A model generated the notes under the pieces. That model worked only from the letters and a program-made list of their open reading frames with translations, was not told the DNA's origin and did not search any database. The translations under genes were made by a program, and so were the position numbers. Positions 45,318 through 48,506 of a DNA stretch of 64,000 nucleotides are shown here, piece after piece; positions within the stretch are counted from its first letter, which is position 1; each line of letters starts with the position of its first letter. Origin of the DNA: Escherichia coli (GTDB taxonomy: Bacteria > Pseudomonadota > Gammaproteobacteria > Enterobacterales > Enterobacteriaceae); assembly GCF_024502345.1 (NCBI RefSeq), contig NZ_JALDNN010000001.1. One strand, given 5' to 3'.

Positions 45318-48300
45318 ATGTTAAAAAAATTAATAACTTTTTCTGCCATCCTGTGTACGGGACAAGCATGGGCTGCATGTGCGGATGGTGCAGCTGGCCC
45401 AAACGGCGTAGATAGTGCCACCGAAGGTAGTACCTGCGATAACAGCGGTACGTCATATATAGGGAATAATACCGCTTATGCGAGCGGGTCAGGTTCTGTT
45501 CTTAATTTCTTACCTGGAACTGTAATCAGTAGTAAGGGTGTTGCTGCCGTTTATACGCTTGCCGTGGGAGGAGTCAATAGTGGCGGTTCGATCCCTGGAG
45601 CTGGAGCAACGGTTCATGCAAAAGGAGATTTAACAGTTAATGGGAATGCTCTGGGCAGTACTCGGAGTATTTTTATCTTTTCTGGTACAGATGCAGGGGG
45701 AAAACGTAACTCACTTCAGATAGATGGAAACCTGACTGCAACGAGGACTGGCGGTCTTTATGGGGCTGTTATCGAAAATACAGGCGGGGACTTATTGGTT
45801 GCAGGTAAAACCTCTCTGACATCCAATGTCTCTGATGCACTTCGTAATAGAGGGGATGCTAATAGTACATTCAGGGGGTCCACATCGATAAATGTAAGCG
45901 GATCCAATGGAATATTTCAATCTGGAGGGACCGTTAATTTTAATGGTGATTTAACAATCAACACCACAACTGGTAACGGAATAAAAACAAGTGGGGGGGT
46001 ATTAAATGCCCGTGAGCTTTATATTGATGTGAAAAGCGGAGTTGGAAATGGTATTGCGATATCTGACCGCGGAATAGTCAATATTTCTGGGGGGGAAATC
46101 ATCACCGAAGGGAAAGGTTCCACTGCTATTTCCCTCAATGGAGGGGCTTTTTCTTCTACAGATGAATTGTCAATCCTTACTAAATCTAATGACTCGCAAG
46201 GAATAGTTCTTTCTGGCGATGCAAAAGCGATATTAGCTCGTACTGATATTCAAACCCAAGGTGATAATGCTAATGGTATAAATATCATAAATATTCCAAC
46301 CAATGGTGTAACATTGTACTTCCAGGACGCTATATCGATAGAAACCCTGGGGGGCGGGAGTAATGCAATTGCATCCAAGAATAATCCGGCAAATGGATTT
46401 GTTCTTCCCGCGGGAAGCATGCTCGTCACCCAGGGTGAAAATTCGCATGGTATTGATATGCAATTTGAGTCTGGTGGTGGTGACTTAACAGTTTTCGAAC
46501 TGGCATCTGGTGCAAATATAGAGACTCATGGAAAAAACGCAAGTGCATTATTCATTAGCAATGATGACGGAGAAGTTAACATTAAAACCGCCAGCAAAAT
46601 TATTGCATCTGGCGCAGGGAGCGATGGTATTGAGATAGATTCCGCACTGCGCGGAGCGAATATCATCAATACCGGGGAAATTTCAGCCTCAGATATTGGA
46701 ATAAATTTTAACACTGGAGTGCAAGGCGATGTTTTCAATGCTGGAACGATTAGCAGCGATAATAATATTGCCGTACATTTTGCGGATGAAATAAATACGT
46801 TGACTCTTACCTCTGGGTCTCAGATTAAAGGGAGCGTCTTAGGTGGAGCTTTCGACGACTCTTTGATTTTACAGGGTACAAACAGTGAAGATCTCTCCAA
46901 ATTTAATGATTTTAACAAGCTGGTAATGGAGGGGGATGAATGGACGCTGAATGATAATGGCATATTTAGCGATAGCTATACACAAAAATCCGGGGTTGTG
47001 AATTTAGTTGGAACATTAGTTACCCCTCAGGTTAATGTTGAAGGTGGCACCCTTAACTTATGGAAGAGTCAGACATGGGATACGCTCATTAATGGTGGAA
47101 AAATATCTTTAAACACTACAGGAAATGTTGGTAATACGCTGAATGTAAAAGGTGATTATAATGGTAGCAATGGTGTTCTGGTATTTAATACAGCTTTAGG
47201 AAGTGATCATTCCCTCAGCGATAAGTTAGTTATATGTGGTAATGCTATGGGTACAACCTCCGTAGTTGTGAATAATGCAGGTGGAACTGGGGCACATACC
47301 ATTGATGGTATTGAACTCATCCAGGTAAATGGTACGTCAACTGATACTGCATTTACTCAGGCAGGACGTATAGTCGCGGGAGCATATGACTATAAACTCG
47401 TAAAAGGTAATGCATCAGGAACCAATACTCAAAGCTGGTTCCTGACAAATCCTGATCCTTACAACCCTGACAACCCTGACAACCCGGACAACCCTGACAA
47501 CCCTGACAACCCTGACAACCCTGACAACCCTGACAACCCTGACAACCCGGACAACCCGGACAACCCAACCATTCGTCCAGAAGCTGGAAGTTATATGGCC
47601 AACATAGATACGGCCAGAAAGATATTTAATTCACGCCTGGAGGACCGCGAAGGACGGTCAGAAAATTCAAGTATGTGGTTACGTCAGCAAGGAACAAGAA
47701 CCACCTTTTATGACACTTCTGGACAGTCCTACAGCGCTACAAACACATATGTGGTACAGGGTGGCGGAGAATTATTCAGTGCAAACTTCAGCGATTTGGA
47801 TCGCCTGGGGATTGGCATGATGCTGGCCTATGGTAACTCAAGTAACAATACTGGCTCTAATCGTACAGGGTATCATTCCAAAGGATCCGTAGATGGTTAC
47901 AGTGCCGGTTTATACGCCACCTGGTATCAGGATGCTGGCACTTTGAATGGAATATATATTGATACCTGGTTACAGTACAGCTGGTTAAATGGGATGGTAA
48001 AGGGAGAACAATTATCTAATGAAAACTACAAGATAGATGGTCTAAGTGCTTCAGTCGAGACTGGATATCGCAAATTAATCTATCAGGGAGCTAACGGAAA
48101 TGTTTTTCTCATTCCGCAAGGACAGTTTATTTTCAGCGGTGTTGAGGCAGATGATGTGAAGGAATTTAATGGAACTCATGTAACCACTTCAGGCAATAAC
48201 AATATACAGAGTCGATTAGGTGTAAAGTTATCTCGTGAAGGTACAAGTAAGATCGACAAAGGAAAAGATAAGCTGTTTACTGTTTATGCAGAAGCGAACT

Positions 48301-48506
48301 GGCTGAACAACAGCCGGCAGGTGGGGGCTGAAATGAATGGCGTCAGTATTAAACAAGCGGGTAACAAAAATGTTGCTGAGCTTAAACTGGGCACTGAAGG
48401 GAAATTTAATAAGAATATGAATTTATGGACCAACGTTGCTCAACAAATAGGTGCTAAAGGCTACAGTGATACAACTATGACAATAGGTTTTAAATATAGT
48501 TTTTAA
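45318..48506 (+). CDS. Autotransporter (type Va secretion) adhesin-like protein
   Basis: 1062 aa; signal peptide (ILCTGQAWA); Gly/Asn/Thr-rich beta-helix-like passenger; Pro-rich PDN linker; C-terminal beta-barrel ending in an aromatic residue (KYSF). Confidence 0.8.
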   Translation: MLKKLITFSAILCTGQAWAACADGAAGPNGVDSATEGSTCDNSGTSYIGNNTAYASGSGSVLNFLPGTVISSKGVAAVYTLAVGGVNSGGSIPGAGATVHAKGDLTVNGNALGSTRSIFIFSGTDAGGKRNSLQIDGNLTATRTGGLYGAVIENTGGDLLVAGKTSLTSNVSDALRNRGDANSTFRGSTSINVSGSNGIFQSGGTVNFNGDLTINTTTGNGIKTSGGVLNARELYIDVKSGVGNGIAISDRGIVNISGGEIITEGKGSTAISLNGGAFSSTDELSILTKSNDSQGIVLSGDAKAILARTDIQTQGDNANGINIINIPTNGVTLYFQDAISIETLGGGSNAIASKNNPANGFVLPAGSMLVTQGENSHGIDMQFESGGGDLTVFELASGANIETHGKNASALFISNDDGEVNIKTASKIIASGAGSDGIEIDSALRGANIINTGEISASDIGINFNTGVQGDVFNAGTISSDNNIAVHFADEINTLTLTSGSQIKGSVLGGAFDDSLILQGTNSEDLSKFNDFNKLVMEGDEWTLNDNGIFSDSYTQKSGVVNLVGTLVTPQVNVEGGTLNLWKSQTWDTLINGGKISLNTTGNVGNTLNVKGDYNGSNGVLVFNTALGSDHSLSDKLVICGNAMGTTSVVVNNAGGTGAHTIDGIELIQVNGTSTDTAFTQAGRIVAGAYDYKLVKGNASGTNTQSWFLTNPDPYNPDNPDNPDNPDNPDNPDNPDNPDNPDNPDNPDNPTIRPEAGSYMANIDTARKIFNSRLEDREGRSENSSMWLRQQGTRTTFYDTSGQSYSATNTYVVQGGGELFSANFSDLDRLGIGMMLAYGNSSNNTGSNRTGYHSKGSVDGYSAGLYATWYQDAGTLNGIYIDTWLQYSWLNGMVKGEQLSNENYKIDGLSASVETGYRKLIYQGANGNVFLIPQGQFIFSGVEADDVKEFNGTHVTTSGNNNIQSRLGVKLSREGTSKIDKGKDKLFTVYAEANWLNNSRQVGAEMNGVSIKQAGNKNVAELKLGTEGKFNKNMNLWTNVAQQIGAKGYSDTTMTIGFKYSF
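47457..47567 (+). repeat. Tandem 9-bp repeat (CCTGACAAC-like; about 12 units) encoding (PDN)n in the autotransporter linker
   Basis: Near-perfect head-to-tail 9-nt repeats with only synonymous CCT/CCG variation. Confidence 0.8.

What the first reader, a model, noticed from the sequence alone, without database searches (positions are those of the whole stretch)
45318..48506. Autotransporter with a (PDN)n linker encoded by perfect 9-bp tandem repeats
About twelve head-to-tail 9-bp units (47457..47567) encode PDNPDN... between the passenger and beta-barrel. Such tracts are prone to slipped-strand changes in multiples of 9 bp, giving in-frame length variation of the linker and possibly altered surface display or antigenicity.
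Basis: seen in the sequence. Interest (0 to 1): 0.4.

Follow-up and report, generated by a model that had tools for sequence, protein, structure and literature searches.

The report
Hypervariable PDN spacer in an autotransporter
An uncharacterised E. coli surface-protein gene carries an in-frame 9-base repeat whose copy number ranges from 2 to at least 23 between otherwise near-identical copies, so the tether holding the protein's outer part to its membrane anchor varies in length; this is a new example of a known kind of variation.

Summary
ORF 45318..48506 (+) encodes a 1062-aa classical (type Va), AIDA-I-type autotransporter. At 47457..47566 it has 12.2 tandem 9-bp units that read PYN(PDN)11. 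The repeat is not perfect at the DNA level: there is one CCTTACAAC unit, eight CCTGACAAC and three CCGGACAAC.

The tract lies exactly between the autochaperone domain (to about aa 712) and the pore helix (aa 754-768) and barrel (from aa 786). AIDA-I has about 2 residues at this position.

The predicted length variation is real. In 37 related public copies, 17 have 2 units; these are E. coli pheV-island copies and Kluyvera. Another lineage has 3 and 4 units. Copies that differ from the window gene by two or fewer bases in 3 kb have 7, 11, 12 or at least 15-23 units, with differing mosaics of the two synonymous unit types. Several assemblies break or are gapped at the tract.

Homologues, including ShdA, have other proline-rich and often repetitive spacers of 6-67 aa at the same site.

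The gene matches no named family at curated cut-offs. Expression, mutation rate, mechanism (slippage or RecA-dependent recombination) and phenotype are untested. This is a new member of a known kind, comparable to pertactin PQP/GGXXP repeats and the E. coli tolA repeat. Interest is moderate.

The parts
45318..48506 (+). Complete ORF of a 1062-aa classical (type Va) AIDA-I-type autotransporter, including the stop codon
   Evidence: ORF list and translation; Pfam and NCBIfam domains; PDB matches by sequence and fold
45318..45374 (+). Probable Sec signal peptide (aa 1-19, MLKKLITFSAILCTGQAWA, with cleavage before AC...)
   Evidence: Read from the translation: a basic n-region, a hydrophobic core and an AWA motif. 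No signal-peptide predictor was run.
45375..47096 (+). Passenger domain (about aa 20-593), a Gly/Asn/Ser/Thr-rich region of presumed beta-helix with no named Pfam domain
   Evidence: Translation. The NCBIfam MisL profile aligns from aa 308 but far below its cut-off. Strands in the modelled part, aa 540-593.
47097..47453 (+). Autochaperone domain / C-terminal cap of the passenger (aa 594-712)
   Evidence: Pfam AC_1 at aa 594-694 and Pertactin at 606-710. IcsA autochaperone structures 3ML3 and 5KE1 align to aa 592-712. Confident beta structure in the model.
47457..47566 (+). Tandem array of 12.2 units of 9 bp encoding PYN(PDN)11: the variable spacer (aa 714-750)
   Evidence: TRF; unit-by-unit parse; pLDDT below 50 at aa 714-746; copy-number spectrum in related copies
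47568..47672 (+). Conserved junction (TIRPEAGSY) and pore-spanning alpha-helical linker (helix aa 754-768 = 47577..47621)
   Evidence: Alignment to AIDA-I 4MEE begins at the junction motif. Helix in the AF2 model. The RPEAGSY motif is shared with homologues.
47673..48503 (+). C-terminal beta-barrel translocator (aa 786-1062), with C-terminal Phe
   Evidence: Pfam PF03797 at aa 786-1040. The model shows the barrel strands. Foldseek top hit is 4MEE, TM 0.89 on the target, rmsd 2.6 A.
45302..45317 (+). The only upstream sequence shared with the other genomic context of this gene (16 bp before the ATG). In the other context the right end of an IS3-family element abuts this point.
   Evidence: BLAST boundaries; alignment of upstream regions
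44128..45254 (+). Truncated type I restriction-modification hsdM remnant (91-aa HsdM_N ORF plus 267-aa N6_Mtase ORF) whose 3' end runs into an IS3-family fragment (about 45150-45244). This is the upstream neighbour that marks the long-tract lineage.
   Evidence: Pfam; IS3-family match; same context in L008, L014 and L025-L029
48544..49600 (+). IS903-type insertion sequence, 37 bp after the stop codon. It replaces the native downstream DNA.
   Evidence: Terminal repeat GGCTTTGTTGAATAAATCG; transposase Pfam domains; identical inverted copy at 32277-33333; native downstream sequence continues in other copies

Best explanation
The gene encodes a classical monomeric autotransporter of the AIDA-I type. 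It has a Sec signal peptide, a beta-helical passenger, an autochaperone cap, a spacer, a pore-spanning alpha-helix and a 12-stranded outer-membrane barrel. The 9-bp array encodes the spacer, which sits at the extracellular mouth of the barrel and tethers the folded passenger to it.

The array behaves as an in-frame hypervariable minisatellite. Misalignment between units, during replication or recombination, adds or removes whole units or blocks of units. Each unit is 3 aa. The 2-unit state is stable across species, whereas expanded tracts change far faster than the flanking DNA accumulates point substitutions. The result is a family of otherwise identical proteins whose spacer ranges from about 7 aa to 70 aa or more.

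Shown here: the architecture, the position of the tract, and the polymorphism with its association to tract length. Inferred: the mutational mechanism, and that the spacer is an extended, proline-stiffened, polyproline-II-like or Asx-Pro-turn segment. At about 0.3 nm per residue, the window allele would project the passenger roughly 9 nm further than the common allele. Whether this changes reach through the LPS or capsule layer, or changes antigenicity, is untested.
For: Architecture:
- Pfam and NCBIfam domain matches.
- AIDA-I transport unit 4MEE matches aa 748-1062 (E 1.5e-72) and the IcsA autochaperone matches aa 592-712.
- The residue-level alignment shows AIDA-I has about 2 residues where this protein has the tract.
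- The AF2 model (pLDDT 84.9, pTM 0.81) has pLDDT below 50 only at aa 714-746, a helix at 754-768 and the barrel from 786. Foldseek's top hit is 4MEE.

Polymorphism:
- 2 units in six IS-disrupted E. coli pheV-island copies, in an intact 1032-aa copy and in Kluyvera ascorbata ATCC 33433.
- 3 and 4 units in 1035- and 1038-aa alleles.
- 7 and 11 units in metagenome contigs that differ from the window gene by 2 differences each over 2.8-3.1 kb.
- Nine scaffolds are gapped inside the tract. For seven of them the conservative minimum is 15-23 units. Five of the nine (L025-L029) share the window's upstream context and differ from the window by 2-3 bases in up to 4.3 kb, yet they carry different mosaics of T and G units next to the unique flanks.
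- Two assemblies end 3-5 nt into the tract.

Family context:
- Homologues have spacers of 6-67 aa at the same site, often proline-rich and repetitive. Two ShdA variants differ by one 12-aa unit there.

Precedents:
- Pertactin GGXXP/PQP repeat typing (PMC12243275).
- The E. coli tolA in-frame repeat, with a measured contraction frequency of 6.9e-5 (PMC3477136).
Against: - All long alleles other than the window come from short-read metagenome assemblies. These can collapse or mis-join repeats, and the 100-N gaps show the assemblers struggled. Exact counts above about 12 are lower bounds, and internal unit patterns may be partly artefactual.
- The sequencing technology behind the window is unknown.
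- No within-culture data exist, so a high mutation rate is inferred from population data only.
- No sigma-70-like promoter was found upstream on the + strand. The gene sits among IS remnants, and all 13 hits in 5426 complete E. coli genomes are truncated or IS-disrupted. The gene may be poorly expressed or dispensable, and the variation could be neutral.
Confidence: 0.8

Rival explanations
1. The tract varies, but by RecA-dependent unequal recombination between misaligned copies (sister chromosomes or incoming alleles) rather than by replication slippage. The outcome, in-frame length change, is the same, but the genetics differ.
For: Higher-order block patterns such as TTTGG-TTTGG and TTTTG-TTTTTG-TTTTTG suggest that multi-unit blocks of 45-54 bp are duplicated. 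For the E. coli tolA in-frame repeat, contractions were shown to be RecA dependent (PMC3477136).
Against: Nothing here discriminates between the two mechanisms. Single-unit differences, such as 11 vs 12 and 3 vs 4 units, fit either.
Confidence: 0.4
2. The variation is selectively neutral. The spacer tolerates any length, and the gene is a decaying accessory gene in an IS-ridden island, so the polymorphism has no biological consequence and is useful at most as a typing marker.
For: All 13 hits in 5426 complete E. coli genomes are truncated or IS-disrupted. An IS is inserted in the tract itself in an Enterobacter plasmid copy. No promoter was predicted. Homologues tolerate spacers of 6-67 aa.
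Against: In the long-tract lineage every change is a multiple of 9 bp, and no frameshift is seen in the resolved copies. The passenger and barrel are intact and nearly invariant there. Proline-rich spacers recur at this site across distant homologues, which suggests the segment is maintained.
Confidence: 0.4
3. The apparent diversity is mostly an assembly artefact. The true tract has one or two lengths, and short-read assemblers produce spurious copy numbers.
For: Nine scaffolds carry runs of 100-121 Ns inside the tract (100 in eight, 121 in L032) and two contigs stop at it. A periodic tract longer than the read or k-mer length cannot be resolved.
Against: - The short alleles (2, 3 and 4 units, 18-36 bp) are far below read length and are reproduced in complete genomes and many contigs.
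- Unit strings immediately next to the unique flanks, within one read length, differ between samples: YTTG, YTTTTG, YTTTTTGG and YTTTTTTTGGG on the left, and TTTGG, GGTTTTGG and TTTTTTGG on the right.
- The existence of gaps itself requires tracts longer than the 12 units of the window.
Confidence: 0.1

Closest known systems
AIDA-I (E. coli adhesin involved in diffuse adherence) and AIDA-I-type type Va autotransporters (MisL, ShdA, YfaL/EhaC, IcsA)
   Same: The overall architecture is shared. The translocator is 33% identical to the AIDA-I transport unit, with TM 0.89. The autochaperone resembles that of IcsA. The WYL...RPE(A/N)GSY junction motifs are shared.
   Different: This protein fails every named family cut-off: MisL 307 vs 1297 bits, AIDA-I 255 vs 1200, ShdA 203 vs 2249, YfaL 145 vs 1459 and ECSE_1600 338 vs 2335. 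The N-terminal half of the passenger has no close named relative. AIDA-I has about 2 residues where this protein has a spacer of 7 to 70 or more aa.
Bordetella pertactin repeat regions (GGXXP)n and (PQP)n
   Same: Pertactin is a type Va autotransporter with short proline-containing in-frame tandem repeats. Their copy number differs between isolates and is used for typing (PMC12243275; PMC2631898, listed). From general knowledge, the PQP region lies near the C-terminal end of the passenger.
   Different: The repeats are not homologous, and the unit and host differ. The range reported here (2 to at least 23 units) is wider than I recall for pertactin. The immunological role known for pertactin repeats is untested here.
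E. coli tolA intragenic tandem repeat
   Same: It is an in-frame tandem repeat in an extended spacer domain of an E. coli envelope protein. Copy number is highly variable between strains and affects phenotype, and a contraction frequency of 6.9e-5 was measured (PMC3477136).
   Different: TolA is a core periplasm-spanning protein, not a surface-exposed accessory protein. The repeat unit and the structure of the spacer differ. For tolA the mechanism (RecA dependence) and the phenotype were tested; here they were not.
XPZ proline-rich region of group B streptococcal beta protein (Bac)
   Same: It has a three-residue periodicity with proline at every third position. The NCBIfam BAC profile weakly matches aa 714-752 (E 0.0011). 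The XPZ region is reported to adopt polyproline II structure and to be surface exposed (Areschoug et al. 2002, as cited in PMC8013792).
   Different: It belongs to a Gram-positive cell-wall-anchored protein with no homology outside the low-complexity tract. The weak match reflects composition, not ancestry.
Salmonella ShdA C-terminal spacer repeats
   Same: ShdA has, at the same position (between WYL and the junction motif), a repetitive Asp/Gly/Pro-rich spacer. Two database variants differ by one 12-aa unit, 55 vs 67 aa.
   Different: The unit is different (GGDGGNVTPPDD-like, 12 aa), only two variants were seen here, and the protein is only 32-33% identical.

Membership tests
Classical (type Va) autotransporter | C-terminal 12-stranded outer-membrane beta-barrel translocator | tested here: met
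   PF03797 E 8.6e-31 at aa 786-1040. TIGR01414 scores 338 bits vs a cut-off of 16. The AF2 model shows a barrel. Foldseek's top hits are the AIDA-I, EspP, Hbp, BrkA and NalP barrels.
Classical (type Va) autotransporter | Alpha-helical linker threaded through the barrel pore, preceding the barrel in sequence | tested here: met
   Predicted helix at aa 754-768, directly after the RPEAGSY junction. This segment aligns to the linker of 4MEE. The evidence is a prediction only.
Classical (type Va) autotransporter | N-terminal Sec signal peptide | tested here: met
   MLKKLITFSAILCTGQAWA|AC, read from the translation. This was by inspection; no predictor was run.
Classical (type Va) autotransporter | Beta-helical passenger ending in an autochaperone domain | tested here: met
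   PF18883 AC_1 scores 100.9 bits vs 27.1, and PF03212 Pertactin 32.3 vs 22. IcsA autochaperone structures match. Only aa 540-712 of the passenger were modelled.
AIDA-I (NF033176) / MisL (NF011841) / ShdA (NF011847) / YfaL-EhaC (NF007285) / ECSE_1600 (NF011422) named families | Whole-protein score at or above the curated NCBIfam cut-off | tested here: not met
   255 vs 1200; 307 vs 1297; 203 vs 2249; 145 vs 1459; 338 vs 2335 bits. The gene is therefore an unnamed AIDA-I-type autotransporter.
In-frame variable-number tandem repeat (VNTR / minisatellite) in a surface protein | Head-to-tail short units of high identity, with unit length a multiple of 3 and in frame | tested here: met
   Period 9, 12.2 copies, 96% matches, no indels, starting at codon position 1.
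In-frame variable-number tandem repeat (VNTR / minisatellite) in a surface protein | Copy number differs between closely related copies while the flanks are conserved | tested here: met
   2, 3, 4, 7, 11, 12 and at least 15-23 units. The lineage carrying 7 to at least 23 units differs by no more than 2-3 nt in 3-4.3 kb. Caveat: the long alleles come from short-read assemblies.
In-frame variable-number tandem repeat (VNTR / minisatellite) in a surface protein | Elevated, reversible mutation rate within a clonal culture | not testable with these tools
   This needs deep long-read or amplicon sequencing of cultures, or fluctuation assays.
Phase-variable contingency locus (ON/OFF) | Repeat changes shift the reading frame or the promoter spacing | tested here: not met
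   The unit is 9 bp and every resolved allele stays in frame. The tract changes protein length, not expression state.

The most novel reading that the evidence does not exclude
The PDN tract could be a genetically tunable stalk. On this reading it is a proline-stiffened rod of about 0.3 nm per residue whose length, from about 2 nm to 20 nm or more, sets how far the adhesin-like passenger projects beyond the LPS O-antigen or capsule layer. Expansion above a threshold would make the tract hypermutable, so that gut E. coli populations continually generate reach and antigenic variants under opposing selection for function versus immune or phage exposure. That would be a length 'rheostat' rather than an ON/OFF switch.
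Probability: 0.2. Interest if true: 0.55.

Novelty: new member of a known kind. Interest (0 to 1): 0.4.

Why it matters
E. coli is not usually regarded as rich in hypermutable repeat loci. A surface-protein spacer that ranges from 2 to at least 23 units on an otherwise invariant gene would give a clean natural series for asking how tether length affects autotransporter display through the O-antigen or capsule layer.

It also has practical consequences. The tract could serve as a high-resolution typing marker for the E. coli lineage that carries it. It is a recurrent cause of assembly breaks and mis-called partial genes: several 303-aa 'autotransporter' fragments in databases derive from gapped tracts, and the 714-aa fragment from a contig that ends at the tract.

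Conceptually it adds to known cases such as the pertactin repeats, the tolA repeat and the ShdA spacer rather than founding a new category.

Tried and rejected
- **Antisense ORF.** The 71-aa ORF at 47353..47568 (-) is a by-product of the periodic tract and was not pursued.
- **Named families.** MisL, AIDA-I, ShdA, YfaL and ECSE_1600 all score far below their curated cut-offs.
- **Phase variation (ON/OFF).** Rejected, because the unit is 9 bp and all resolved alleles are in frame.
- **Composite transposon or inversion.** Two identical inverted IS903 copies bracket the gene, but no 9-bp target duplications were found in any direct, outer or swapped combination.
- **Promoter.** The consensus scan found no + strand sigma-70-like site in the 63 bp upstream. 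Overall site counts equal the shuffle expectation, so expression is left open.
- **Literature.** Searches for PDNPDNPDN-type sequences, and for autotransporter combined with VNTR, slipped-strand, proline-rich or leuX, found no description of this gene or tract. The two hits to NPDNPDNPD were unrelated papers.
- **Genome scan.** The scan of one genome per species found only Kluyvera ascorbata, with 2 units.
- **Second protein search.** A search with the tract region returned only C-terminal fragments. This looked like a dead end but led to the gapped scaffolds.
- **Window identity.** The core genes are 99.6% identical to E. coli, but no complete RefSeq E. coli genome has the intact gene or the hsdM-context arrangement. 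The strain remains unidentified.
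Full report
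**Observation**

The window has a single long ORF at 45318..48506 on the + strand, 1062 aa. Tandem Repeats Finder reports one array in the 44-50 kb interval, at 47457..47566, with period 9, 12.2 copies, 96% matches, no indels and consensus CCTGACAAC.

The array begins at a first codon position and is translated as PYN followed by eleven PDN, at aa 714-750. The motif CCKGACAAC occurs 13 times in the window against 0.95 expected from dinucleotide-preserving shuffles. Eleven of the 13 are contiguous.

The units are not identical. Written Y = CCTTACAAC, T = CCTGACAAC and G = CCGGACAAC, the window reads Y T T G T T T T T T G G. 'Perfect' is therefore true of the peptide over 11 units but not of the DNA.

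**What the gene is**

Pfam finds three domains: the Autotransporter beta-domain (aa 786-1040, E 8.6e-31), Autochaperone type 1 (aa 594-694) and Pertactin (aa 606-710). NCBIfam's generic autotransporter barrel model scores 338 bits against a cut-off of 16.

Every named family falls far below its cut-off: MisL 307/1297, AIDA-I 255/1200, ShdA 203/2249, YfaL-EhaC 145/1459 and ECSE_1600 338/2335.

Against solved structures:
- The AIDA-I transport unit 4MEE matches aa 748-1062 (E 1.5e-72).
- The IcsA autochaperone structures 3ML3 and 5KE1 match aa 592-712.

An AlphaFold2 model of aa 540-1062 was built on 19 sequences and has pLDDT 84.9 and pTM 0.81. It shows beta structure up to about aa 710, a helix at aa 754-768 and barrel strands from aa 786. 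The only segment with pLDDT below 50 is aa 714-746, which is the tract. Foldseek places 4MEE first, with TM 0.89 on the target and rmsd 2.6 A, followed by the EspP, Hbp, BrkA and NalP barrels.

The N-terminus, MLKKLITFSAILCTGQAWA|AC, looks like a Sec signal peptide by inspection. The protein is an unnamed AIDA-I-type classical autotransporter.

**Where the tract sits**

In the residue-level alignment to 4MEE, homology runs through '...SWFLTNPDP', stops, and resumes at 'DNPTIRPEAGSY'. AIDA-I has about two residues between the corresponding motifs. The tract is therefore an insertion at the junction between the autochaperone cap of the passenger and the conserved motif that leads into the pore helix. 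That is the segment expected at the extracellular mouth of the barrel.

I extracted the same interval, between W[YF]L and RPE-like motifs, from 15 more distant homologues plus a chimeric relative. Lengths range from 6 to 67 aa. The spacers are frequently proline-rich and several are overtly repetitive:
- A Citrobacter braakii protein has PVD/PPVD repeats.
- One protein has VTDPG x 6.
- ShdA-type proteins have 12-aa GGDGGNVTPPDD-like units, and two ShdA variants differ by exactly one unit.

A variable, often repetitive spacer at this site is thus a feature of the wider family.

The counts below include the leading Y unit.

*Complete E. coli genomes.* Only 13 of 5426 complete E. coli genomes carry any part of the gene, at 99% identity or more. 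All copies are truncated or IS-disrupted and lie on the chromosome; every copy whose surroundings I inspected is in a pheV island. The six that retain the region have 2 units, YT.

*Protein collection.* The 90% cluster has 200 members from E. coli, Citrobacter, Kluyvera and Enterobacter.
- Most members are 1032 aa, with 2 units.
- An Enterobacter allele is 1035 aa, with 3 units.
- Another allele is 1038 aa, with 4 units.

The DNA of the last two was confirmed. An intact 2-unit copy lies in a pheV island of assembly GCA_026736625.1. Kluyvera ascorbata ATCC 33433 also has 2 units.

*Metagenome flank scan.* An exact-flank scan of JGI metagenomes returned five contigs, with 2, 2, 2, 7 (YTTTTGG) and 11 (YTTTTTTTGGG) units. 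The 7- and 11-unit contigs differ from the window gene by only 2 differences each over 2.8-3.1 kb outside the tract.

*Assembly breaks.* Two further assemblies of the window-type allele, one of them E. coli GCA_054852445.1, end 3-5 nt into the tract.

*Gapped scaffolds.* A second protein search returned 303-aa C-terminal fragments. Their contigs turned out to be human-gut metagenome scaffolds with runs of 100-121 Ns inside the tract. I parsed the unit strings anchored on each unique flank and took the largest possible in-frame overlap of the two ends as a conservative minimum:

| Scaffold | Minimum units |
|---|---|
| L025 | 23 |
| L027 | 21 |
| L031 | 21 |
| L026 | 20 |
| L030 | 20 |
| L023 | 19 |
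| L028 | 16 |
| L029 | 15 |

Five of these scaffolds (L025-L029) share the window's upstream neighbour, a truncated hsdM. They differ from the window by 2-3 bases in up to 4.3 kb. Yet their flank-anchored unit strings differ from each other and from the window:
- Left side: YTTG..., YTTTTG..., YTTTTTGG... and YT(CCTGACACC)TTTTG...
- Right side: ...TTTGG, ...GGTTTTGG, ...GTTTTTGG and ...TTTTTTGG

**Reading of the pattern**

The 2-unit state is found in 17 copies that are 99.5-99.9% identical to the window and that span genera. It appears stable.

Expanded tracts occur in the hsdM-context lineage, and independently in L023, whose flanks are only 99.4-99.6% identical. They differ in length and internal mosaic between samples whose flanks are almost invariant. 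This is the signature of length-dependent repeat instability. All resolved changes are multiples of 9 bp and preserve the frame.

Block-like patterns such as TTTGG-TTTGG and TTTTG-TTTTTG-TTTTTG suggest that multi-unit blocks are gained or lost as well as single units. The data cannot distinguish replication slippage from RecA-dependent unequal recombination. For the tolA in-frame repeat of E. coli, contraction was RecA dependent and occurred at 6.9e-5 (PMC3477136).

**Caveats**

Every allele longer than the window's comes from short-read metagenome assembly. The N-gaps show that these tracts exceeded what the assemblers could resolve, so internal patterns may include errors and the counts are lower bounds.

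The argument for diversity rests on three points: the short alleles, which are unambiguous; the unit strings within one read length of the unique flanks; and the fact that gaps and contig breaks require long tracts.

I do not know how the window itself was sequenced.

**Genomic setting**

The window's core genes (lptFG, pepA) are 99.6% identical to E. coli. The gene lies in a low-GC (0.36-0.47) island next to tRNA-Leu(CAA) at 52282..52366 and an integrase at 50842..52092.

Upstream is a truncated type I hsdM running into an IS3-family fragment. Downstream, 37 bp after the stop, an IS903 (48544-49600) replaces the native sequence found in other copies. In the other context, the pheV island, the right end of an IS3-family element abuts 16 bp upstream of the ATG.

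No sigma-70-like promoter was detected upstream on the + strand. Expression is unknown.

**Mechanistic proposal**

*Shown.* The tract encodes the tether between the folded passenger and the pore helix, and its length varies in 3-aa steps from 7 aa to at least 70 aa.

*Inferred.* With proline at every third residue and Asp/Asn between, the segment is likely extended, either polyproline-II-like, as reported for the streptococcal XPZ region (Areschoug 2002, cited in PMC8013792), or a string of Asx-Pro turns. At about 0.3 nm per residue, a figure from general knowledge of PPII geometry, the window allele would add about 9 nm relative to the common allele, and the longest alleles 20 nm or more. That could change how far the passenger projects through LPS or capsule, and it could create a repetitive epitope. 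Neither effect has been tested. A neutral spacer polymorphism in a dispensable accessory gene remains a serious alternative.

**Comparison and novelty**

The phenomenon belongs to a known class:
- the pertactin GGXXP/PQP repeats, which are used for typing (PMC12243275);
- the tolA repeat;
- the ShdA spacer.

I found no description of this gene or of a PDN repeat in an autotransporter. I rate it a new member of a known kind. Interest is moderate, because of the unusually wide allele range on an almost invariant background in E. coli.

Noticed in passing
window 32277-33333 and 48544-49600: Two 1057-bp IS903-type copies are 100% identical and in inverted orientation. They bracket 15.2 kb that includes the autotransporter. 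No 9-bp target-site duplications were found in any direct, outer or inversion-swapped pairing, which suggests IS-associated deletions or rearrangements rather than simple insertions.
   Followed up: partly
L033 about 3950-3976 (Enterobacter plasmid-like contig CP116251.1) and L035 about 40-65: The end of an IS3-family element (...GGGTAAGATCA) is joined directly to GACAAC-CCAACC. The IS therefore sits inside the PDN tract and truncates the gene to its translocator. In L033 this copy is on a plasmid-like contig with ParA/ParG and resolvase genes.
   Followed up: partly
L001-L006 (E. coli pheV islands); window-equivalent positions about 46489-46494 and 47226-47229: All 13 hits in 5426 complete E. 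coli genomes are truncated or IS-disrupted: IS3 at the same site in several strains, plus IS5, IS903B and IS26 neighbours. Intact copies exist only in draft or metagenome data. The gene seems to be under frequent insertional inactivation.
   Followed up: partly
protein P0006 (1002 aa; Logan contig): This is a chimeric relative. Its passenger is about 92% identical to this gene up to the autochaperone (...VVVNN[A/V]GGTGA). It then switches to an unrelated autochaperone end, a different proline-rich spacer (PVVPPVEPEPPVIPIY) and a different barrel. This indicates domain shuffling by recombination within the autochaperone region.
   Followed up: no
window 45375-45450 (aa 20-45); proteins P0024 and P0025 (Pseudomonas): An N-terminal motif with two cysteines (AAC..G....ATEGSTC..SGTS[YF]) is conserved between this protein and Pseudomonas homologues that are only about 25-30% identical. 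It may be a disulphide-bonded N-terminal cap of the passenger.
   Followed up: no
L025 tract (unit CCTGACACC) and L031 tract (unit CCTGGCAAC): Rare non-synonymous unit variants occur inside long tracts, encoding PDT and PGN. They could be real variant repeats or sequencing or assembly errors.
   Followed up: no
window 59340-59635: A 96-bp unit is repeated 3.1 times (94% matches) just downstream of pepA. It contains REP-like palindromic sequence (GCCGGATGCGGCGTGA...CCTTATCCGACCTAC) and looks like a BIME/REP array.
   Followed up: no
window 44128-45254: A type I restriction-modification hsdM is split into a 91-aa HsdM_N ORF and a 267-aa N6_Mtase ORF and is truncated by an IS3-family fragment (about 45150-45244). 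It is a dead remnant that serves as the marker of the long-tract lineage in metagenomes.
   Followed up: partly
proteins P0016 vs P0018 (Salmonella ShdA-type): The analogous spacer differs by exactly one 12-aa GGDGG(N/D)VTPPDD unit between the two database variants (55 vs 67 aa). ShdA may carry a comparable in-frame VNTR.
   Followed up: no
L025 4950-8912: In a metagenome scaffold of the same lineage, the native DNA downstream of the autotransporter carries an IS5-type transposase followed by DUF87 (HerA-like) and SIR2-like genes, a possible defence pair. These are absent from the window, where IS903 replaces them.
   Followed up: no
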